IMG/VR virus record: IMGVR_UViG_2721755651_000013
Source: a virus
Taxonomy: Duplodnaviria; Heunggongvirae; Uroviricota; Caudoviricetes
DNA: 22,378 nucleotides
Direction: 5' to 3' (one strand)
Numbering within the stretch: position 1 is the stretch's first letter; every line of letters starts with the position of its first letter. Positions 4,657 through 21,109 of this stretch are shown in pieces. The notes below the pieces were generated by a model. That model saw only the letters and a program-made list of their open reading frames with translations. It was not told the DNA's origin and made no database searches. The position numbers and the translations under genes were made by a program.

Positions 4657-5206
4657 AGCGTCACCTCCCCGGCAGGCAGCCGTGCAGAAAGGGAGAGTAC
4701 ATAATCTCGGACTAGCAAACGGCGCGCGGAACGCTCATCGCAGGAGACAGTGCGAAGCATACAGATGCGGGGGTGAGTGTCAGCACGGCGGATTGCGGCA
4801 AACACAAAGACATATTGCGGGTGTGACGGGGTGAGGATTGTAGCCATGATGGCAGCCTCCAATAAGTAGCGGTTATTGCTACCACCGGAAACGCCAATTT
4901 CACTGGTGGCAGCCCGAACGGGGTTGGCGTAACCGGCCTTATTGGAAACCGGCCAGCCCGAAGGCTGCCCCGCCCGGACTACCATTATCTCGATAGAACC
5001 ATGGTGTAAGCATAAACACCACAGCCCTGAAAATGGTTGTGCCTGAGCTACGACGTAAAAAAAGACGCAAGGGGCGTCAATTGTCGCCAATAAGTTATAC
5101 GGAACGCCAATTCCGGCTGCCGATTTTGCGACAGCGGAAAAACTATACCTGGAAATGACGACAGTAAGCAAGCCAGAATAAAGGTATTTAATGTATGCAG
5201 GTATCA

Positions 5207-8100: not shown

Positions 8101-8332
8101 ACCATTTTTGACGCGAAAGCCCTTGTGTGGTGGCTTCTGAGACGATTTGCGGAATGCATGAAAACCAGTCTGTTAAGCGAAGCGAGCAGGCGTGGGGGGC
8201 TGCGCGCGCTAAGGGGTTAGATTATAAAATATCAAACGCCGGTGAGATCCATTATTGTGGAACCACCCGAAGGAAGTGTAGAGGCGAAAGTACCCAAAAT
8301 AATTTTGCAAATTATTTAGAAATGAACTGAGC

Positions 8333-8358
8333 GCTCGAAACGAAATATAATTTCGAGC
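8333..8358 (-). terminator. Hairpin gctcgaaa-N10-tttcgagc just 3' of the minus-strand cargo operon
   Basis: Perfect 8-bp inverted repeat with 10-nt loop located about 30 nt after the stop of the last cargo ORF (8389); no strong U-tract. Confidence 0.4.
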
Positions 8359-8388
8359 ACCCCAATTAGCAGTTATATTTTTAATGTA

Positions 8389-8955
8389 TTAAACAGGATA
8401 AAAACCAGAGCTTCCATTCTTATTTAAGTTATGGATTTTATTTGCATCATTAATTTTTATTTGGAACGTCGGACCTTTATTCTCAAGAATTACAATCTGG
8501 AAATTATAGTCCCTTTTGATTAATGCGTGATAAAATGAATCACTGAGACTGACGCTATTAACATCCGATAGAGAACCCCCTCTATCTTTATCAAAGTGCG
8601 TCACTAATGGACTATCAAGCACAACAAATCCAATGAATGGATTCCCTTTTCTTGATAAAAATTCCGCAAAGCAAATGGTAAATATAGCATGCATTACTGC
8701 ACGGGTACCTTTACCAAACATTCCTCGGCGTTTCCCATTGATATTAAAGTCATATGTATCTTCGTCAAATCGCACTTTGTTATCTTTAGAATTTTCAAAA
8801 TTTATATCATTCAAAAAGTCTTGCATCGCTATTTCTATATCATACAAATCAGCTACTGTTAAGGAGTCAAAGTCCTCGGCGGAGTATTTAAGTTCGTCAA
8901 CATCATCTTCTTTATCTTGTAATGAAGATAGAATGCTATGTTTTGTGTGATCCAT
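8389..8955 (-). CDS. C-terminal ABC/SMC-type ATPase head segment (putative Walker B/D-loop region) of the cargo ATPase
   Basis: 188 aa; GMFGKGTRAVMHAIF (signature-like) followed by NPFIGFVVLDSPLVTHFD (hydrophobic strand + Asp, Walker-B-like); TAATG stop/start overlap with the upstream ORF; no Shine-Dalgarno; reading frame is open about 20 codons upstream of the ATG. Confidence 0.5.
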   Translation of the reverse strand: MDHTKHSILSSLQDKEDDVDELKYSAEDFDSLTVADLYDIEIAMQDFLNDINFENSKDNKVRFDEDTYDFNINGKRRGMFGKGTRAVMHAIFTICFAEFLSRKGNPFIGFVVLDSPLVTHFDKDRGGSLSDVNSVSLSDSFYHALIKRDYNFQIVILENKGPTFQIKINDANKIHNLNKNGSSGFYPV

Positions 8956-9545
8956 TAAAAGATTGTCTTTATATTCATAAAGTGATTCAAGAGATGAATG
9001 TATTGTTTTATATTTTTATCTTCTAACGTCTTAAAATCACTTTTTTCTGATTGATAAATTTCATTAACATCATTTTTTCTTAACATAATTAATTCATGTT
9101 CGCGAACATTAGATCCGATTGATTCAATTAATCCTTTCAGCTGGCTTTTGATTTTCAATTTTTCTGCATTACACGACAAAAAACAATCATCATATGATAT
9201 TTCATTTTCTTTTTTTTGCGGTGTATTACAGAACTCACAATAAATATCTGCAAAATTATTTAAATAGAAATTCGCCTGTGATACAACATCTATTCTTTGT
9301 AGATCTATAAAGTATTGGTCTTTAAGAAGACTAAATCTTTCAATGAGTAATGATAAGTATTTTTCCCTGTCACTGATTGAATATAATTCATCACTTAACT
9401 CTTTTAATAATTGCTTCTTATCATCAAGTGCATCAACAATACCTTTCAATATATCTTTCGATGATTCAATATCTTGCTCTACTTTCTCAAGTTCTCTTGA
9501 AACAATGACTTGATCATATTCAGGATAAATTAATTGCGCTTTCAA
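8955..9545 (-). CDS. Coiled-coil segment of the cargo SMC-like ATPase (no canonical start; same frame as the upstream ORF, separated by one TAA)
   Basis: 196 aa, highly charged (E/K/D/L-rich) helical heptad-like sequence; ORF-track start is TTG with no usable Shine-Dalgarno spacing; in frame with 9576..10208. Confidence 0.45.
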   Translation of the reverse strand: MKAQLIYPEYDQVIVSRELEKVEQDIESSKDILKGIVDALDDKKQLLKELSDELYSISDREKYLSLLIERFSLLKDQYFIDLQRIDVVSQANFYLNNFADIYCEFCNTPQKKENEISYDDCFLSCNAEKLKIKSQLKGLIESIGSNVREHELIMLRKNDVNEIYQSEKSDFKTLEDKNIKQYIHLLNHFMNIKTIF

Positions 9546-9575
9546 TTCCTCATAAATATTTGCAATTTGATTTTT

Positions 9576-10208
9576 TTAAAAATATCTTGCTTTTTTATTT
9601 GGTTTTTCTGCTAAGGAGTTAGTATCATCTCTCTGAGTTAAAAGGAATTTAAATTCAGACTTTCTTTTTGTCTCCTCGCTAGGAATATCAGAAAGAATTA
9701 ACGACTTCTCAGTTAACACTCTTAATTCATCAATACAAAAAAATTCAAAAACATTATTAAGATTAAATTTATGAAGAGTATTACTTAAGTTTGTTCTTAC
9801 TTTAGCCTCTTTGAAATTCAACCTACCATAAAAGTATGATGAAAAACTCTTTTTAGACGAAGCACTTTTGGAAAAAACCATCAACAGATTAGCTTCACTA
9901 ACATTTTCAATGCTCGAATCATATAATCTGTAATGGGCGCTATCCTGAAGAGACCTCTCAATTGTCATTACCCTACCTTGAAAATTAAATTCCAGATAGG
10001 CTAAATCATAACCTTGAGCATGATCGATATCTTTATTTTTTAGTTTTTCACTCCCTAATAAATATCGAATCAAATAATATATGTATGTTTTTCCAGAGTC
10101 AGAACCACCATATAAAATAGTCAATTTAGAACCAAATTCAATTATAGCATCTAATTTATTGAATCCGGTTACCTTTATTTTTCTGAACGTAAAAAAATTG
10201 TCATTCAT
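9576..10208 (-). CDS. N-terminal ABC/SMC-type ATPase head with Walker A (GGSDSGKT)
   Basis: MNDNFFTFRKIKVTGFNKLDAIIEFGSKLTILYGGSDSGKTYIYYL is the canonical N-terminal strand plus P-loop layout of RecF/SbcC/SMC-like ABC ATPases; start moved to the ATG at 10206..10208, which overlaps the upstream stop (ATGAATGA). Confidence 0.65.
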   Translation of the reverse strand: MNDNFFTFRKIKVTGFNKLDAIIEFGSKLTILYGGSDSGKTYIYYLIRYLLGSEKLKNKDIDHAQGYDLAYLEFNFQGRVMTIERSLQDSAHYRLYDSSIENVSEANLLMVFSKSASSKKSFSSYFYGRLNFKEAKVRTNLSNTLHKFNLNNVFEFFCIDELRVLTEKSLILSDIPSEETKRKSEFKFLLTQRDDTNSLAEKPNKKARYF

Positions 10209-10659
10209 AATTAAATTCCATATCATATTTGCCAATTTTATTTTTTATAATTGATTGCAACTGCTCATCAGGAATATCACTATATAACTTAACCACCAAA
10301 TTTATATTATGCTCCATCTGCGCAACATATTCATTATGTAGAGAATTTGTAAATGCATATGTTTTTTCAGAAGCTTTATATACAAAACCACGATGTGTAT
10401 AAATTTTTGAGGCTAGTTCATAGCCTTGCAACAAAGCCAATGATTCTAAAACAATCTCTCGTTTTAGGGCTAACTGAGCATCTCTACGGGGTATTGGAGG
10501 ATGAAGACTAATCTCTTCAGGTAAAAAATCCTTAAGATTTACTAAAATAAAATCAAAACAAATAAGCCGTTCAAGGCTTAATGAAGAAGGATAAATAGCG
10601 ACGAGCACTTTCGCCATTCGACATGCCACTTCTAAACTTGAATTATAAATTCTAACCAT
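10201..10659 (-). CDS. Small alpha-helical protein, putative middle component (LmuC-like) of a three-component ATPase system
   Basis: 152 aa when started at the ATG at 10657..10659 (TAATG overlap with upstream stop, GGTGAG upstream); located between the nuclease-like ORFs and the ATPase, as in ABC-3C/Lamassu type II loci. Assigned by position and size only. Confidence 0.5.
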   Translation of the reverse strand: MVRIYNSSLEVACRMAKVLVAIYPSSLSLERLICFDFILVNLKDFLPEEISLHPPIPRRDAQLALKREIVLESLALLQGYELASKIYTHRGFVYKASEKTYAFTNSLHNEYVAQMEHNINLVVKLYSDIPDEQLQSIIKNKIGKYDMEFNYE

Positions 10660-11276
10660 TATCTCACCGTCCAAATTACTTCACCATCATTAACCAAATG
10701 ATGGCATATTCCTTTTTTATCATTTGCTTCACATATTTTTGATAGTACTGAATGTGCAATTGGTGTCAGAACAGCCTGCTTCAAGACTGCATTACACCTA
10801 ATAAATGCATAATTATGGTCTTCATAAAAGACGGGTTCAATTGAAGATGAAATGTAACATTTCAATGCTTTGAATACATCATCTTTAAATACTTCGCGGA
10901 CAAAAACCTCAAGCGAAGATGCAAAATAAAAATCATTTCTACTATTATTAAAGTGTCGTCTGTATGGATCATCAAGCTCTAAGAAAGAACTATAAGTTTT
11001 ATTTCCATGCTCTGAATAGGCTTGAAGCAGTGCATTAACATATACAGACTCTTTTTTTGAATTGTATGTTGGAATTTCATTTGGAGGGATTCTCACGACA
11101 TACAGCTCGTTAAAGTACTTAAAATAAAGGTGTGTATTTGCAATATCATTTAAAATCAATGATAAGGGTAGAGAGTAAAAAATACTAAAATCAAAATCCT
11201 CAATATATTTTTTTATTTCATCATCTAATGGAATATCAATCTTTTTAGTTATTTTTTTGAAATTGCTGAATCCCAT
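10659..11276 (-). CDS. Hypothetical protein; probably the C-terminal part of the effector, reachable by a -1 shift from 11249..11665
   Basis: 205 aa; only one Met (the start) and no Shine-Dalgarno; overlaps the upstream ORF by 28 nt in the -1 frame across an A7 tract. Confidence 0.5.
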   Translation of the reverse strand: MGFSNFKKITKKIDIPLDDEIKKYIEDFDFSIFYSLPLSLILNDIANTHLYFKYFNELYVVRIPPNEIPTYNSKKESVYVNALLQAYSEHGNKTYSSFLELDDPYRRHFNNSRNDFYFASSLEVFVREVFKDDVFKALKCYISSSIEPVFYEDHNYAFIRCNAVLKQAVLTPIAHSVLSKICEANDKKGICHHLVNDGEVIWTVR

Positions 11277-11665
11277 GAATCAAGGACTGCTTTTTTAAGC
11301 TCGTTTTTATTTTTCAATAAATTAGAAAATGTAGTAGATAAATCATAGGGTGCCACAAAAAAGTACTTCTGAGGGATGGGATAATCACCATTCAGAGTAA
11401 AATAGATAAGTTTTCCAAACTCAACTACAACATCAGAGAACCCTAAACTTTTTTTGTACAGTTTGCATTGATAATTATCCCAAGAATAACCTTCTACGTT
11501 AGGATCCGATTTATATCCAACAACGTCTCTACCTTTATCTCCAGCTCCTCCCAAACGTTCGCTCCACGGGTAATCATCTGATTTACAGACAATAAGCCAA
11601 TCATGGACAAATACCTCCCATTGTTCATCATCCCATGTCAATATTTCCGAAAGTGGTTGAGACAC
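11249..11665 (-). CDS. Mrr-like PD-(D/E)xK nuclease domain protein (putative effector N-terminal domain)
   Basis: 138 aa; WEVFVHDWL...GGAGDKGRDVVGY...YQCKLY matches the E ... G-D-x-G-x-D ... Q-x-K pattern of Mrr-type restriction-endonuclease catalytic domains; GTG start with AAGGAG 7 nt upstream, embedded in the 3' end of int. Confidence 0.6.
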   Translation of the reverse strand: MSQPLSEILTWDDEQWEVFVHDWLIVCKSDDYPWSERLGGAGDKGRDVVGYKSDPNVEGYSWDNYQCKLYKKSLGFSDVVVEFGKLIYFTLNGDYPIPQKYFFVAPYDLSTTFSNLLKNKNELKKAVLDSWDSAISKK

Positions 11666-11668
11666 AAA

Positions 11669-12850
11669 TTAACTCCTTTTTAGTCTTTCAAATATCAAAT
11701 TACTGTACCAGTCCATCATAGACTTCCTTCCACTAAAATATTGAGCATGGTTATAAGTCCCCCTAATAGAATTTTTATCTACATGAGCCAACTGGATTTC
11801 AATCCAAGCACTCTCAAAACCTTGCTCATGCAGGATTGTAGAAAGGGTATGACGAAAACCATGTCCAGTGACTTTTCCTCCATACCCAATACGCTTAATG
11901 GCTTGATTTATACTCGCTTCGCTCATTGGCCTATTCGGATCGTTCCGCCCTGGAAAAACATAACGATAGTTCCCTGTCATGATCTTGAGTTCATTGAGTA
12001 AATCTACCGCTTGAGATGATAAGGGCACAAGATGTGGCCTACGCATTTTCATCCTTTCAGCAGGAATTTCCCAAATAGCGTTATCCAGATCAAATTCTTG
12101 CCATAATGCCGCGCGTAATTCGATGGTTCTCACACCCGTAATCATCAGTAATTTCGTGGCTATCTGGACAAGCTTACTCCCGGAGTAACCCTCTAAGGCA
12201 CGTAGAAAATCAGGTATCTCATCAGCTTTTAGGAATGGGAAATGATTGGATTGGTGTACTTCGAGAGCGCTGGAGAGATCAGCCGCAGGATTGTACTCCG
12301 CCCTACCCGTTGCAATTGCGTAGCGAAACACTTCGGAGCAACGCTGCCGCACTTTGCGCATTTTCTCCAACGCACCACGTTTCTCAATTTTACGCAGAAC
12401 GTTCAGCAGCTCTAGCGGTTTAATCTCTCCCACAGGCCTTGTTCCGACATAAGGAAAAATGTCGTTCTTAAACGCTTCCATGATGTCTGATGCATATCCC
12501 GCCGACCATTTAGCAGATTTAAGTTGATGCCACTCTCTGGCTATCTTTTCGAAGGCGTTCTCTGACTCTGTTTGCATAGCTAGCTTTTGCTCTTTTCGAA
12601 CCTCACTAGGGTTCTTTCCTTCTGCCACAAGTTTTCGAGCTTCATCACGACGGGAACGAGCATCGGCAAGGGTGATCGTTGGGTAAACACCAAGCGAGAT
12701 CATTTTGGGTTTGCCGGCATAGCGATAGCGGAACCGCCAACTCTTGCTTCCATTAGGTTCTATAAGTAATGACAACCCTAGCCCATCTCCAAATGTATAG
12801 GCTTTAGCTTCAGGCTTAGCGCGGCGAATCTGCATATCGTTTAAAGGCAT
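11669..12850 (-). CDS. int: P4-type tyrosine integrase
   Basis: N-terminus MPLNDMQIRRAKPEAKAY...DGLGLSLLIEPNGSKSWRFRYR is the P4-integrase N-terminal signature; C-terminal HGFRHT...Y catalytic motifs; start moved to the ATG at 12848..12850 (393 aa); adjacent to a tRNA-derived att. Confidence 0.9.
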   Translation of the reverse strand: MPLNDMQIRRAKPEAKAYTFGDGLGLSLLIEPNGSKSWRFRYRYAGKPKMISLGVYPTITLADARSRRDEARKLVAEGKNPSEVRKEQKLAMQTESENAFEKIAREWHQLKSAKWSAGYASDIMEAFKNDIFPYVGTRPVGEIKPLELLNVLRKIEKRGALEKMRKVRQRCSEVFRYAIATGRAEYNPAADLSSALEVHQSNHFPFLKADEIPDFLRALEGYSGSKLVQIATKLLMITGVRTIELRAALWQEFDLDNAIWEIPAERMKMRRPHLVPLSSQAVDLLNELKIMTGNYRYVFPGRNDPNRPMSEASINQAIKRIGYGGKVTGHGFRHTLSTILHEQGFESAWIEIQLAHVDKNSIRGTYNHAQYFSGRKSMMDWYSNLIFERLKRS

Positions 12851-12897
12851 GTGTATAGGAATCCAGACCGAACAGGAACATATACACAATCCTATAC
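12851..12897. repeat. 10-bp inverted repeat GTGTATAGGA-N27-TCCTATACAC immediately upstream of int
   Basis: Exact inverted repeat seen directly, with a third TATACACA copy between; a likely int promoter/operator or arm-type site. Confidence 0.4.
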
Positions 12898-13012
12898 ACA
12901 TTCAGTACCGGATTCTACTGGATGGTTACGGACTACTATGGACTTAAAAGAATAAAAAATGTTATAAATCAGAGATTTTATGGACTAATACGGACGTTTG
13001 AGGAAGTTGAGA

Positions 13013-15200: not shown

Positions 15201-15432
15201 ACCCGATCATCAAACGAAACATAAAATTAGCTCACATTATGAGGAAAGGTATCTTTTTGCGCTATGTAAATTCAAAGGGTTAGCCTCATTTTCCCGATGG
15301 CTTTCTCAACACTACTAGTTGTGAGCCCTTGCAATGTTCATTAATATACGTCTCACAAATAATTCACAGATATTGCAAAATGGATATTACTGAACCGCCC
15401 CGGGTTTCCTGGAGAGTGTTTTATCTGTGAAC

Positions 15433-16319
15433 TCAGGCTGCCAGATCATCGTTTCCGATGGAAGCATAATAAGCTTTTTCTGCTTCTGCCGGAGGAGTAT
15501 GGCCCAGCCTTCCCAGCAATCGTCGATTGTTATACCAGTCCACCCACGTTAGTGTGGCCAGTTCCACTTCTGCACGGTTTTTCCAGCTCTTACGGTGTAT
15601 TACCTCCGCTTTGTAAAGACCATTGATGCTCTCAGCCATCGCGTTGTCATACGAGTCGCCTGTACTCCCTGTTGATGCCAGTAATCCGGCTTCTTTTAGT
15701 CGCTCCGTATAGGCCAGTGACACATACTGAGAGCCTTTATCGCTGTGATGGATGGTGCCAGACGGACGACGGGCCCACAACGCCTGCTCCAGCGCATCCA
15801 GCACGAATGTCGTTTCCATAGACGATGAGACCCGCCACCCCACGATGTATCCGGCAAACACATCAATGATAAACGCCACATAGACGAAGCCCTGCCATGT
15901 GCTGACGTAAGTAAAATCAGCCACCCACAGCTGGTCAGGTCGTTCTGCCACGAACTGACGGTTTACGCGGTCGCCTGCGGCAACGGCTTTCCGGCTGATG
16001 GTCGTACGGACCTTTTTACCCCGGAGAACACCGGCAAGTCCCATAACCGCCATGAGACGTGCCACTGTACATCTGGCCACCCTGATTCCTTCCCGTAACA
16101 ACTGACGCCAGACTTTACGCACACCGTACACCTGATGATTTTCATCGTATACGCGCTGTATCTCTCTCTTCAGCCAGTCGTCGTGCTGCGCACGGGCACT
16201 GCGTTTATCCGGATGATGTCGCTGTTGCTGACAATGGTAATACGTTGACGGGGCAATATGCAGTTCGCTGCATACCGGTCCGACCCCGTACTGCTCACGC
16301 AGCTTATCCAGCAGTGGCA

Positions 16320-16323
<4 letters not shown>
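15433..16323 (-). CDS. IS3-family transposase OrfB (DDE integrase core)
   Basis: 296 aa with the characteristic IS3 OrfB layout; overlaps orfA in the -1 frame across an A6 tract (TGGAAAAAATGATG), the usual frameshift window. Confidence 0.9.
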
Positions 16324-17466
<1,143 letters not shown>

Positions 17467-19619: not shown

Positions 19620-19727
19620 CCTGAATAAAATTACTCACCAACAGCCCACCAACTGTAATTCATCGATACCGTGTGAACCGCCCCGGGTTTCCTGGAGACT
19701 AAACTCCCTGAGAAAGAGGTAAACAGG

Positions 19728-20054
19728 ATGACTAAAAATACTCGTTTTTCCCCCGAAGTCCGTCAGCGGGCGATTCGTATGGTTCTGGAAAGTCAGGATG
19801 AATATGACTCACAGTGGGCGGCAATTTGTTCCATTGCCCCAAAGATTGGCTGTACGCCGGAGACTCTGCGTGTCTGGGTTCGCCAGCATGAGCGGGATAC
19901 CGGGGGCGGTGATGGTGGGCTCACCAGCGCTGAACGTCAGCGTCTGAAAGAGCTGGAACGTGAAAATCGTGAACTGCGCCGCAGTAACGATATCCTTCGC
20001 CAGGCTTCCGCTTATTTTGCGAAGGCGGAGTTCGACCGCCTCTGGAAAAAATGA
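19728..20054 (+). CDS. IS3-family transposase OrfA
   Basis: Identical 108-aa protein to 16320..16646. Confidence 0.9.
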
Positions 20055-20941
20055 TGCCACTGCTGGATAAGCTGCGTGAGCAGTACGGGGTCGGACCGGT
20101 ATGCAGCGAACTGCATATTGCCCCGTCAACGTATTACCATTGTCAGCAACAGCGACATCATCCGGATAAACGCAGTGCCCGTGCGCAGCACGACGACTGG
20201 CTGAAGAGAGAGATACAGCGCGTATACGATGAAAATCATCAGGTGTACGGTGTGCGTAAAGTCTGGCGTCAGTTGTTACGGGAAGGAATCAGGGTGGCCA
20301 GATGTACAGTGGCACGTCTCATGGCGGTTATGGGACTTGCCGGTGTTCTCCGGGGTAAAAAGGTCCGTACGACCATCAGCCGGAAAGCCGTTGCCGCAGG
20401 CGACCGCGTAAACCGTCAGTTCGTGGCAGAACGACCTGACCAGCTGTGGGTGGCTGATTTTACTTACGTCAGCACATGGCAGGGCTTCGTCTATGTGGCG
20501 TTTATCATTGATGTGTTTGCCGGATACATCGTGGGGTGGCGGGTCTCATCGTCTATGGAAACGACATTCGTGCTGGATGCGCTGGAGCAGGCGTTGTGGG
20601 CCCGTCGTCCGTCTGGCACCATCCATCACAGCGATAAAGGCTCTCAGTATGTGTCACTGGCCTATACGGAGCGACTAAAAGAAGCCGGATTACTGGCATC
20701 AACAGGGAGTACAGGCGACTCGTATGACAACGCGATGGCTGAGAGCATCAATGGTCTTTACAAAGCGGAGGTAATACACCGTAAGAGCTGGAAAAACCGT
20801 GCAGAAGTGGAACTGGCCACACTAACGTGGGTGGACTGGTATAACAATCGACGATTGCTGGGAAGGCTGGGCCATACTCCTCCGGCAGAAGCAGAAAAAG
20901 CTTATTATGCTTCCATCGGAAACGATGATCTGGCAGCCTGA
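20051..20941 (+). CDS. IS3-family transposase OrfB
   Basis: Identical 296-aa protein to 15433..16323. Confidence 0.9.
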
Positions 20942-21109
20942 GTTCACAGATAAAACACTCTCCAGGAAACCCGGGGCGGTTCATAACCAATTGTATTTAT
21001 TTTAAAATTAATAGGTGCAACTCACTAAACAACGCAATTCTGATCTCTCGATCACCTCCCAAGCCACACAACCCTGCAAAAAATAAATCTATATAAAAAA
21101 CATACAGAT

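What the first reader, a model, noticed from the sequence alone, without database searches (positions are those of the whole stretch)
11640..11700. Cargo operon is translationally hooked onto the 3' end of int
The int stop (TAA at 11669..11671) is followed after 3 nt by the GTG start of the Mrr-like ORF, and the only ribosome-binding site for that ORF (AAGGAG, 7 nt upstream) lies inside the last int codons. There is no room for an independent promoter or terminator, so the cargo genes should be co-transcribed with, or at least read through from, the integrase gene.
Basis: seen in the sequence. Interest (0 to 1): 0.5.

Follow-up and report, generated by a model that had tools for sequence, protein, structure and literature searches.

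The report
Defence cargo flush behind satellite integrase
The first gene of a now-broken Lamassu anti-phage cassette starts 3 bases after the integrase gene of a P4-like satellite prophage of E. coli O157:H7, but published start-site mapping shows a strong promoter inside the integrase gene, so the cargo need not depend on integrase expression.

Summary
The GTG is the true start; 14 full-length homologues begin at the same codon.

The window is E. coli O157:H7 prophage Sp2/CP-933I, a P4-like satellite. The junction is the integrase edge of the known int–psu defence hotspot. The cargo is a Lamassu (ABC-3C) cassette, LmuA(Mrr-type)–LmuC–LmuB. It is decayed: lmuA is split at an A7 run, and lmuB by a stop and a frameshift.

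Flush junctions are the rule in this integrase subfamily. Same-strand cargo starts -8 to +18 nt from the int stop in 13 loci carrying at least 7 cargo types.

"No room for a promoter" is true only of the intergenic space. Published Cappable-seq of EDL933 maps a strong sense start site inside int (window 11994, 329 nt before the GTG) in all 8 conditions. It is mostly 4–10 times stronger than int's own start site (12881). Its hexamers are conserved across the subfamily. The junction RNA is unstructured.

The cargo is therefore physically co-transcribed with int 3' sequence but probably does not depend on Pint. Translational coupling is possible, not required. This is an ordinary compact junction with a modestly interesting general rule.

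The parts
11669..12850 (-). int (intS, ECs_0289 / EDL933_RS01505), a P4-type tyrosine integrase of 393 aa. The mechanical ORF extends to 12901.
   Evidence: Pfam Arm-DNA-bind_3, Phage_int_M and Phage_integrase. RefSeq annotation of Sakai and EDL933. The main TSS at 12881 lies downstream of the ATG at 12901, which favours the 12850 start.
12881..12881 (-). Primary transcription start site of int (Pint)
   Evidence: Cappable-seq TSS 310776 in NZ_CP008957.1, assigned to the integrase in 6 of 8 conditions, RRS 18-99. Coordinate mapping: window = 323657 - record, checked on the int stop and the GTG.
12001..12030 (-). Promoter inside int: -35 TTGTGC (12030..12025), 18-nt spacer, -10 TAGATT (12006..12001)
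   Evidence: Sequence. The paper's bTSSfinder calls box10 'tagatt' for TSS 311663. The hexamers are kept in all 11 members of the >=87%-identity subfamily, and all 4 third-codon positions are invariant against 26% gene-wide. The consensus scan missed it at 7 of 12 matches.
11994..11994 (-). Strong internal sense TSS, 329 nt upstream of the cargo GTG. The RNA begins AUGAACUCAAGAUCAUGACAGGG.
   Evidence: Cappable-seq iTSS 311663, present in all 8 conditions, S/N > 10 in all 8, RRS 122, 210, 183, 38, 691, 705, 360, 264.
11669..11743 (-). Variable C-terminal tail of int (QYFSGRKSMMDWYSNLIFERLKRS*), after the YNHA motif (the Tyr is read as catalytic by analogy with XerD) and beyond the aligned stretch of the Pfam catalytic domain. 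It travels with the cargo.
   Evidence: The Pfam domain ends 23 residues before the C-terminus. Tail sequences and lengths differ among relatives. Integrases whose bodies are 94-96% identical but carry different cargo have tails only 55-57% identical, whereas same-cargo pairs have 84-91%. A remnant of about 90 nt sits in front of the Xenorhabdus cassette.
11673..11678 (-). Shine-Dalgarno AAGGAG of lmuA, inside int codons K-R-S
   Evidence: Homologous to the AAAAGGAG in the Xenorhabdus leader.
11669..11671 (-). int stop codon TAA
11663..11665 (-). GTG start codon of lmuA
   Evidence: The N-termini of homologues are colinear.
11249..11665 (-). lmuA 5' fragment (ECs_0290, 138 aa): Mrr-type nuclease domain of the Lamassu effector
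   Evidence: The fused 335-aa sequence hits PADLOC LmuA at 8e-89. Full-length single-ORF homologues of 334-337 aa exist. Mrr_cat is weak here but passes in homologues.
11252..11258 (-). A7 run where the lmuA reading frame breaks, followed by TAA at 11251..11249
   Evidence: tblastn switches frame at 11252-11255. The Aeromonas orthologue has an in-frame A8 at this site.
10659..11276 (-). lmuA 3' fragment (ECs_0291, 205 aa): CTD6 domain
   Evidence: Pfam CTD6 at 7.7e-30.
10201..10659 (-). lmuC (ECs_0292, 152 aa), ABC-3C middle component 2; apparently intact
   Evidence: Pfam MC2. PADLOC LmuC at 2.9e-36. tblastn covers residues 1-152.
8389..10208 (-). lmuB pseudogene (ECs_0293), an SMC-like ABC ATPase split into ORFs of 210/219, 196 and 188 aa. 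It has an in-frame stop at 9576..9578 and a frameshift between 8961 and 9003.
   Evidence: Intact orthologues are 604-609 aa. tblastn. Sakai annotates it as a pseudogene. O55:H7 has Leu at the stop codon.
8329..8362 (-). Terminator-like hairpin (13 pairs) 27 nt after the lmuB stop; end of the cargo unit, facing the convergent sid-psu-delta genes

Best explanation
The junction at 11663..11678 is the integrase-side edge of the int–psu defence hotspot of a P4-like satellite prophage (Sp2/CP-933I of E. coli O157:H7). A Lamassu cassette (lmuA-lmuC-lmuB) sits flush behind int. The cassette's own leader, including its Shine-Dalgarno sequence, has been absorbed into the dispensable, variable C-terminal tail of the int reading frame, which happens to stop 3 nt before the lmuA GTG.

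Transcription enters the cargo from within int. The main source is a strong constitutive sigma-70-type promoter embedded in the int coding sequence (TTGTGC-18-TAGATT, TSS at 11994). A lesser source is read-through from Pint (TSS at 12881).

Translation of lmuA starts at the GTG, using an exposed AAGGAG. Ribosomes finishing int could re-initiate there, but this is not needed, and most transcripts lack the int start codon. In this lineage the arrangement has little consequence, because lmuA and lmuB are pseudogenes.

What is shown: the geometry, the identity of the start codon, the mapped start sites, cargo decay, and recurrence of flush junctions with other cargos. What is inferred: that transcripts from 11994 run into the cargo, and that translational coupling is dispensable.
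For: Geometry and start codon:
- The geometry is read directly from the sequence.
- Homologue N-termini confirm the start codon.

Identity of the locus and cargo:
- The window is 100% identical to Sakai/EDL933 Sp2, annotated 'P4-like phage', with sid, psu and delta convergent.
- The cargo is Lamassu/ABC-3C: CTD6, MC2 and AAA_23 in Pfam, and LmuA, LmuC and LmuB in PADLOC.

Transcription:
- Cappable-seq gives an internal TSS at 11994 in 8 of 8 conditions with RRS 38-705, against Pint RRS 0-99.
- A -10 TAGATT lies at the canonical distance.
- The promoter hexamers are kept in every member of the subfamily, with all 4 synonymous positions invariant against 26% gene-wide.
- No terminator-like site lies on the minus strand between 12881 and 11665, and a strong one follows lmuB.
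- The junction RNA is less structured than shuffles, z = +1.76.

Recurrence in relatives:
- Same-strand cargo starts -8 to +18 nt from the int stop in 13 loci.
- These carry Lamassu, Gabija, DRT3, DRT8, DUF4297, AAA+HNH or unknown cargos.
- The int stop therefore wanders relative to the cargo start, rather than sitting at the -4/-1 overlaps typical of selected coupling.

Cargo decay.
Against: - No RNA-seq coverage, Northern blot or RT-PCR was available, so it is not shown that 11994 transcripts extend 329 nt into lmuA. Rho-dependent termination in an untranslated leader is possible.
- An in-frame int AUG lies 14 nt after the TSS (11980..11978). If it is translated, ribosomes would still terminate at the TAA, and coupling could matter after all.
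- The AT-rich cargo (26-35% GC against about 47% in int) may be silenced by H-NS.
- Promoter conservation rests on 15 related sequences and may partly reflect shared descent and coding constraint.
- Two weak start sites assigned to the 138-aa ORF (windows 11757 and 11675, RRS <= 2.9) were flagged by the authors as degradation-level.
Confidence: 0.7

Rival explanations
1. The cargo has no promoter of its own, is transcribed only as an int-cargo operon from Pint, and its first gene is translated by ribosomes handed over from int (translational coupling). Cargo expression would then follow int regulation.
For: The stop-start gap is 3 nt and the SD lies inside int. No terminator lies between Pint and the cargo. 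Pint is active, with a TSS at 12881 in most conditions. Flush junctions recur in relatives.
Against: A 4-10 times stronger TSS lies inside int in 7 of 8 conditions. The SD is strong and unstructured. Stop-start distances in relatives scatter from -8 to +18 nt and show no preferred coupling geometry. The same cassette works as a stand-alone unit, with 390-440 nt of non-coding leader and no int, in Xenorhabdus and Aeromonas.
Confidence: 0.15
2. The cargo is transcriptionally silent in O157:H7. The internal start site makes a short RNA, or a truncated Int fragment, unrelated to the cargo. The flush junction is just a scar of cassette insertion with no present function.
For: The cargo is a pseudogene array with lineage-specific extra lesions, which indicates no selection. 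The cargo has 26-35% GC, typical of H-NS-silenced DNA. No strong TSS and no coverage data exist within the cargo. The RNA from 11994 starts with AUG, and an in-frame int AUG follows 14 nt later.
Against: No terminator-like structure lies between 11994 and 11665. The promoter is conserved in relatives whose cargos are intact and start flush with int, which is hard to explain if it serves nothing downstream.
Confidence: 0.12
3. A promoter in the last ~90 nt of int (extended -10 TGGTACAGT, 11710..11702) drives the cargo. This would explain why that stretch travels with the cassette into Xenorhabdus.
For: About 90 nt of int tail is retained upstream of the Xenorhabdus cassette, with local alignment score 27 against 11.8 +/- 1.7 in shuffles. 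There the motif reads TGGTATAGT. Rousset et al. obtained defence from one clone (pFR97) that started at the same point in int.
Against: Cappable-seq shows no TSS near the predicted window position of about 11695. Only degradation-level signals appear at 11757 and 11675. pFR97 also has its own 55-nt intergenic region, and pFR84, cloned from the same point, was inactive without Ptet.
Confidence: 0.03

Closest known systems
int–psu defence hotspot of P4-like satellites (Rousset et al. 2022, PMC9122126; NAR 2026, PMC13586616)
   Same: There is a P4-type integrase and a convergent sid-psu-delta module. A variable anti-phage cargo lies between them. Closely related integrases carry unrelated cargos: Gabija, DRT3, DRT8, Lamassu and others.
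   Different: In the passages I searched, those papers define the hotspot by gene content and do not describe three features found here. These are the flush int-cargo junction, the cargo SD inside the int tail, and an int-embedded promoter. They also report that defence pseudogenes are rare in P4 hotspots (<1%), whereas this cargo is a decayed Lamassu present, with the same split ORFs wherever examined, in all 309 matching E. coli genomes, most of those listed being O157:H7 or O55:H7.
Lamassu type II / ABC-three-component (ABC-3C) system, Mrr-effector subtype
   Same: The gene order is lmuA (N-terminal nuclease + CTD6), lmuC (MC2), lmuB (SMC-like ABC ATPase). HMM hits are strong for all three. 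Intact orthologues at 57-67% identity occur in Xenorhabdus, Aeromonas and Serratia.
   Different: lmuA is split in two and lmuB in three, so the system is almost certainly inactive. In the studied Vibrio system, LmuB point mutants abolish defence (10.1101/2025.04.02.646746).
Canonical P4: int followed by cII on the same strand
   Same: The first hotspot gene downstream of int is co-oriented with it. A terminator is annotated only after that gene.
   Different: The P4 gap is 66 nt rather than 3. P4 int is only 40% identical and lacks the TTGTGC/TAGATT promoter at the aligned position.
Translationally coupled cistrons in compact operons (stop-start overlap or near-abutment)
   Same: The gap is 3 nt, with the SD inside the upstream ORF.
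   Different: No SD-masking structure is present. Most mapped 5' ends lie downstream of the upstream gene's start codon. The stop position is not conserved among relatives.

Membership tests
P4-like satellite int–psu defence hotspot | P4-type tyrosine integrase at one edge | tested here: met
   Pfam Arm-DNA-bind_3 (4e-26), Phage_int_M (3e-35) and Phage_integrase (2e-25). The NCBIfam PRK09692 domain hit scores 319.7 bits, below that model's 434-bit cut-off.
P4-like satellite int–psu defence hotspot | psu/delta/sid helper-subversion genes at the other edge, plus P4-type primase and immunity RNA | tested here: met
   RefSeq annotation of the identical Sakai/EDL933 DNA lists capsid-size determination, polarity suppression, ogr/Delta and primase genes. 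Rfam finds a C4 antisense RNA at 4902-4989.
P4-like satellite int–psu defence hotspot | Cargo differs between elements with near-identical core genes | tested here: met
   Integrases 87-91% identical in protein carry GajA, Drt3a, Drt8, DUF4297 or Lamassu.
Lamassu / ABC-3C | LmuA with effector domain + CTD, LmuC middle component and LmuB SMC-like ATPase in one co-oriented cluster | tested here: met
   PADLOC LmuA 8e-89 on the frame-corrected sequence and LmuC 3e-36. LmuB scores 1e-118 on the Xenorhabdus orthologue, with tblastn colinearity to the window.
Lamassu / ABC-3C | Intact reading frames, i.e. a functional system | tested here: not met
   lmuA shifts frame at the A7 run 11258..11252. lmuB has an in-frame stop at 9576..9578 and a frameshift between 8961 and 9003. 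Sakai annotates a pseudogene.
Mrr-type (PD-(D/E)xK) restriction endonuclease domain | Match to Pfam Mrr_cat above the gathering score | tested here: inconclusive
   The window ORF scores 12.2 bits against a cut-off of 21 (E = 0.2). Homologues P0043 and P0103 score 25.0 and 26.7 bits over the equivalent N-terminal region. No solved structure matches by sequence.
Translationally coupled gene pair | Stop of the upstream ORF within a few nt of the downstream start, with the SD in the upstream ORF | tested here: met
Translationally coupled gene pair | The downstream initiation site is masked by structure unless the upstream ORF is translated | tested here: not met
   A 120-nt junction RNA has MFE -14.7 kcal/mol against -19.6 +/- 2.8 for shuffles, and 196 of 200 shuffles fold at least as well.
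Translationally coupled gene pair | Downstream translation falls when upstream translation is blocked | not testable with these tools
   This needs reporter fusions carrying int nonsense mutations.
int-cargo operon driven only by Pint | No transcription start between the int start codon and the cargo start codon | tested here: not met
   Cappable-seq gives internal TSSs at windows 12380, 12058 and, strongly, 11994.

The most novel reading that the evidence does not exclude
In this integrase subfamily, the 3' third of int would act as a built-in 'expression socket' for interchangeable defence cassettes. It has two parts. A conserved promoter embedded in the coding sequence (TSS about 330 nt before the int stop) supplies transcription. 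The last 60-80 nt of int, after the YNHA motif that by analogy with XerD holds the catalytic Tyr, is a dispensable tail that is swapped together with each cassette and carries that cassette's ribosome-binding site. Recombination breakpoints would cluster at the conserved Tyr motif. A corollary is that hotspot clones starting at that motif (as in published screens) may lack the real promoter, which could produce false-negative defence assays.
Probability: 0.4. Interest if true: 0.55.

Novelty: new member of a known kind. Interest (0 to 1): 0.3.

Why it matters
For this locus it matters little. The cargo is a dead Lamassu system in a well-annotated O157:H7 prophage, and a ribosome-binding site inside the preceding gene is commonplace.

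The wider point is practical. P4-like satellites are a major reservoir of anti-phage systems, and cargos are usually cloned 'with their native promoter'. In this int subfamily the promoter may lie about 330 nt inside int, while the cargo's leader forms the int tail. If so, the functional unit to clone, and the unit that recombines, is larger than the cargo genes.

It also shows why 'no intergenic space' should not be read as 'no independent promoter'.

Finally, it gives a lineage-wide example of defence-system decay in a hotspot where pseudogenes are reported to be rare.

Tried and rejected
1. The consensus promoter scan found nothing convincing on the minus strand in the int 3' half. It missed the experimentally mapped promoter (7 of 12 matches), so I did not rely on it.

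2. I proposed an extended -10 (TGGTACAGT, 11710..11702) in the int tail, prompted by the Xenorhabdus remnant. Cappable-seq shows no start near the expected position, so I rejected it as the main promoter.

3. I tried to use PARIS-1 of E. coli 042, which was inactive from its 'native promoter' clone in Rousset et al., as a natural test of the int-internal promoter. Its int is only 62% identical and lacks the motif, so it is uninformative.

4. A global correlation of tail identity with cargo identity over 105 locus pairs gave rho = 0.02. Most cargos are unrelated and alignment background dominates. Only the discrete same-cargo and same-int pairs are informative.

5. No tRNA lies in the window. 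In relatives the attachment site is tRNA-Thr next to proA. Here it is separated from int by the tandem prophage Sp1 and an IS fragment.

6. Literature searches for ECs0289-0293 found nothing. Ghisotti et al. 1990 on transcription of the P4 non-essential region is not held.

7. Rfam found nothing at the junction at E <= 1. PDB sequence search found no LmuA relative.

8. The O157:H7 FRIK944 system tested by Rousset et al. is a cytidine deaminase from another P4-like element, not this cassette.
Full report
OBSERVATION

The genes lie on the minus strand. Read 5'->3' on that strand, the junction is ...GAA AGA CTA AAA AGG AGT TAA TTT GTG TCT CAA CCA....
- AAGGAG occupies 11678..11673.
- The int stop TAA occupies 11671..11669.
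- Three T's follow.
- GTG at 11665..11663 opens a 138-aa ORF (11249..11665).

The motif AAGGAG-N7-DTG occurs once in the window against 0.61 expected, so the motif alone proves nothing. Homology shows that the start is real:
- A frame-corrected 335-aa product has single-ORF homologues of 330-337 aa at 56-67% identity and 99-100% coverage.
- Their N-termini are colinear with the GTG codon: M-x-[K/Q]-P-L-[A/S]-x-I-[M/L]-T-W-D-D.

WHAT THE LOCUS IS

The region is 100% identical to E. coli O157:H7 Sakai and EDL933. There it is annotated as prophage Sp2, 'P4-like phage'.
- int is intS (ECs_0289), a P4-type tyrosine integrase.
- Genes for capsid-size determination, polarity suppression and ogr/Delta converge on the cargo from the other side.
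- Rfam finds the P4-type C4 immunity RNA at 4902-4989.

The finding therefore sits at the integrase edge of the int–psu hotspot of P4-like satellites described by Rousset et al. 2022 (PMC9122126).

The cargo is a Lamassu / ABC-three-component system:
- CTD6 in the 205-aa ORF, MC2 in the next ORF, and AAA_23/SMC_N in the next.
- PADLOC gives LmuA (8e-89) for the fused first two ORFs and LmuC (3e-36) for the third. It gives LmuB (1e-118) for the intact Xenorhabdus orthologue of the last three.

'Mrr-like' is defensible but weak here. Mrr_cat scores 12.2 bits against a cut-off of 21 on the window ORF. It scores 25-27 bits on two homologues over the same N-terminal region.

THE CARGO IS DECAYED

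Intact orthologous cassettes in Xenorhabdus, Aeromonas and Serratia encode proteins of 334-337, 151-159 and 604-609 aa. In the window:
- lmuA changes frame at an A7 run (11258..11252). Aeromonas has an in-frame A8 there.
- lmuB carries an in-frame stop at 9576..9578 and a frameshift between 8961 and 9003.

All 309 E. coli genomes that hold the cassette have it at >=99% identity, and most of those listed are O157:H7 or O55:H7. Every record listed in the spread sample is annotated with split ORFs. O55:H7 RM12579 still has Leu at the O157 stop codon but has its own 1-nt deletion at 9041. Strain CEC01302 has another at 9210. Independent lesions in different lineages indicate neutral decay. A 2026 survey reports that defence pseudogenes are rare (<1%) in P4 hotspots (PMC13586616), so this is one of the exceptions.

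THE FLUSH JUNCTION IS A RULE, NOT A PECULIARITY

I collected relatives of int from one genome per species and from E. coli. The int subfamily is defined as those >=87% identical in protein among the 11 aligned, plus E. coli relatives found by 80-92% nucleotide identity. Within it, a co-oriented cargo gene starts at the following distances from the int stop:

| Distance (nt) | Locus and cargo |
|---|---|
| +3 | O157, Lamassu |
| +18 | Serratia L009, Lamassu |
| +7 | L012, GajA |
| +1 | L013, Drt3a |
| -8 | L014 and L038, Drt8 |
| +9 | L015, DUF4297 |
| -8 and +4 | L016 and L017, unknown cargo |
| +3 | L020, Drt3a |
| +11 | L099, AAA ATPase + HNH |
| +1 | L102, 'ATP-dependent nuclease' |
| 0 | L104, 'ATP-dependent nuclease' + UvrD |

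Three loci instead have convergent cargo with gaps of about 55-90 nt (L019, L100, L103). Canonical P4 has int followed by co-oriented cII after 66 nt.

The distances are all short but scattered, and none sits at the classic -4 or -1 overlap. The int stop even moves between two loci with the same cargo (L016 at -8, L017 at +4). That argues for compaction without selection for a particular coupling geometry.

THE INT TAIL BELONGS TO THE CARGO MODULE

The int tail is the 60-81 nt that follow the YNHA motif. I take the Tyr in that motif to be the catalytic one by analogy with XerD; this is my reading and was not tested. The tail varies in sequence and length:
- SNLIFERLKRS (O157)
- SNYIFD
- SDFIFKG
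- SDYIFIKENVNE
- ADQLSIC

These are shown. The tail lies beyond the stretch aligned to the Pfam catalytic domain.

The tail follows the cargo rather than the integrase. Integrases whose bodies are 94-96% identical but which carry different cargos have tails only 55-57% identical. The two same-cargo pairs have tails 84-91% identical. Megablast homology of other E. coli integrases to the O157 gene stops at about window 11690-11735.

The Xenorhabdus bovienii copy of the same cassette sits in an unrelated prophage with no integrase nearby. It still carries about 90 nt homologous to the O157 int tail, running from the TYNHAQY codons through AAAAGGAG. The local alignment score is 27 against 11.8 +/- 1.7 in 1000 dinucleotide shuffles, and none reached it. 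The Aeromonas leader shows no such similarity.

In Serratia the int+Lamassu block is colinear with O157 through the junction at 76% identity. There int stops five codons earlier (TAATAA), which leaves 18 nt.

The O157 geometry therefore arises because the int frame happens to read on through the cassette's leader and SD.

TRANSCRIPTION: THE DECISIVE EVIDENCE

A published Cappable-seq study of EDL933 used eight conditions with three replicates each (PMC10469882). Its supplementary tables list start sites in NZ_CP008957.1. Window coordinate = 323657 - record coordinate, which I verified on the int stop and the GTG. On the int strand the tables give:

| Record coordinate | Window coordinate | Description |
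|---|---|---|
| 310776 | 12881 | int primary TSS; RRS 18, 28, 18, 47, 0, 99, 39, 74 |
| 311277 and 311599 | 12380 and 12058 | weak internal TSSs |
| 311663 | 11994 | strong internal TSS; all eight conditions; S/N > 10 in all eight; RRS 122, 210, 183, 38, 691, 705, 360, 264 |
| 311900 and 311982 | 11757 and 11675 | signals <= 2.9, assigned to the 138-aa ORF in one or two conditions, flagged as degradation-level |

Upstream of 11994 lie TAGATT (12006..12001, six bases before +1) and TTGTGC (12030..12025, 18-nt spacer). The authors' promoter predictor also reports box10 'tagatt'. The generic consensus scan missed this promoter.

The two hexamers are kept in all 11 subfamily members from seven genera, with only the third base of the -10 varying. 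They are identical in four of the six further E. coli relatives with a complete int; L102 has TTGTTC at -35, and L103 has TTGTCC with a -10 of TAGGCT. All four third-codon positions inside the hexamers are invariant, against 26% of third positions gene-wide. Only 4.5% of equally spaced position sets in the gene are as conserved. The motif is absent from integrases at <=64% identity, including P4 and E. coli 042.

No terminator-like hairpin lies on the minus strand between 12881 and 11665. A 13-pair hairpin follows lmuB at 8362..8329.

TRANSLATION

A 120-nt RNA spanning the junction folds less well than its shuffles: -14.7 against -19.6 +/- 2.8 kcal/mol, z = +1.76. The SD and GTG are therefore not masked, and de novo initiation should be possible.

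Re-initiation by ribosomes terminating at the TAA remains possible on Pint transcripts. It is also possible on 11994 transcripts if the in-frame AUG at 11980..11978 is used. Neither was measurable here.

VERDICT ON THE INTERPRETATION

The cargo has no intergenic promoter or terminator, and its RBS lies inside int. The cargo is necessarily co-transcribed with int 3' sequence.

The inference that it must depend on int transcription is undermined by a mapped, strong, constitutive start site inside int. What remains unshown is that those transcripts reach lmuA.

COMPARISON AND NOVELTY

The hotspot, the integrase family and Lamassu are all known, and the locus is annotated in RefSeq. Three things are not described in the parts of the papers I searched:
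- the near-universal flush junction;
- the cargo-linked int tail;
- a conserved int-embedded promoter.

Rousset et al. cloned int-side cargos starting at the GTYNHAQY codons, which excludes the promoter mapped here. One such clone was active (pFR97, which has its own 55-nt spacer). One was inactive until driven by Ptet (PARIS-1), but its integrase belongs to another subfamily, so it is not a test.

The 'expression socket' reading is plausible (about 0.4) and testable. The finding itself is an ordinary compact junction in front of a dead cargo.

Noticed in passing
window 11249..11258 (-): The lmuA frame breaks at A_AAA_AAA_TAA, a textbook -1 slippery heptamer followed by a stop. The -1 frame continues into the CTD6 half. 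The Aeromonas orthologue has an in-frame A8 here. The likeliest cause is a 1-nt deletion, but transcriptional slippage or -1 frameshifting could restore some full-length LmuA.
   Followed up: partly
window 9576..9578, 9041, 9210: Lesions in lmuB are lineage-specific. The nonsense codon (T at 9577) is in O157:H7, while O55:H7 RM12579 has Leu there but carries a 1-nt deletion at 9041. Strain CEC01302 has a deletion at 9210. This is a time-ordered decay series in a hotspot where defence pseudogenes are reported to be rare.
   Followed up: partly
L003 4600..4689; L004 and L005 equivalent: A Xenorhabdus bovienii prophage (terminase/portal/HNH type, not P4-like) carries the same Lamassu cassette. 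In front of it lies a decayed remnant of about 90 nt of a P4-type integrase tail, which suggests the cassette came from a satellite hotspot.
   Followed up: yes
window 11978..11994 (-): The strong internal transcript begins with AUG (AUGAACUCAAGAUCAUGA, a 5-codon ORF in another frame). It has an in-frame int AUG 14 nt downstream, so a 108-aa C-terminal Int fragment (MTGNYRY...KRS) could be made.
   Followed up: no
window 12850..12901 (-): The longest int ORF starts at 12901, but the main mapped TSS is at 12881. The annotated 393-aa start at 12850 is therefore the one carried on the main transcript.
   Followed up: partly
window 15391..16703 and 19671..20983: Two 1313-bp IS3-family copies (orfA/orfB with ALIL frameshift pseudoknots) are 100% identical and in inverted orientation. 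They are probably the IS1203/IS629 element annotated in related O157 genomes. They flank 2967 nt of prophage Sp1 (invertase and tail-fibre region). Sakai has no IS annotated at these positions, and the pair could mediate inversion.
   Followed up: partly
window 4902..4989 (-) and 5058..5135 (-): Rfam finds a C4 antisense RNA (P4 CI-type immunity RNA, 84 bits) and an isrK Hfq-binding RNA (72 bits) in the satellite's immunity region.
   Followed up: no
L106 2790..2880: In E. coli strain 5735 an IS5-like element (ISKpn26) is inserted a few bases after the TAGATT -10 hexamer of the int-internal promoter, truncating int.
   Followed up: no
loci L063, L065, L068, L074, L078, L082, L092: Distant P4-type integrases (45-48% identity, mostly metagenome-assembled genomes assigned to Pseudomonadota, plus one Gemmataceae and one Pseudobdellovibrionaceae) also have a co-oriented ORF whose candidate start lies within about 10 nt of the int stop. 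Flush int-cargo junctions may extend well beyond enterobacterial satellites.
   Followed up: no
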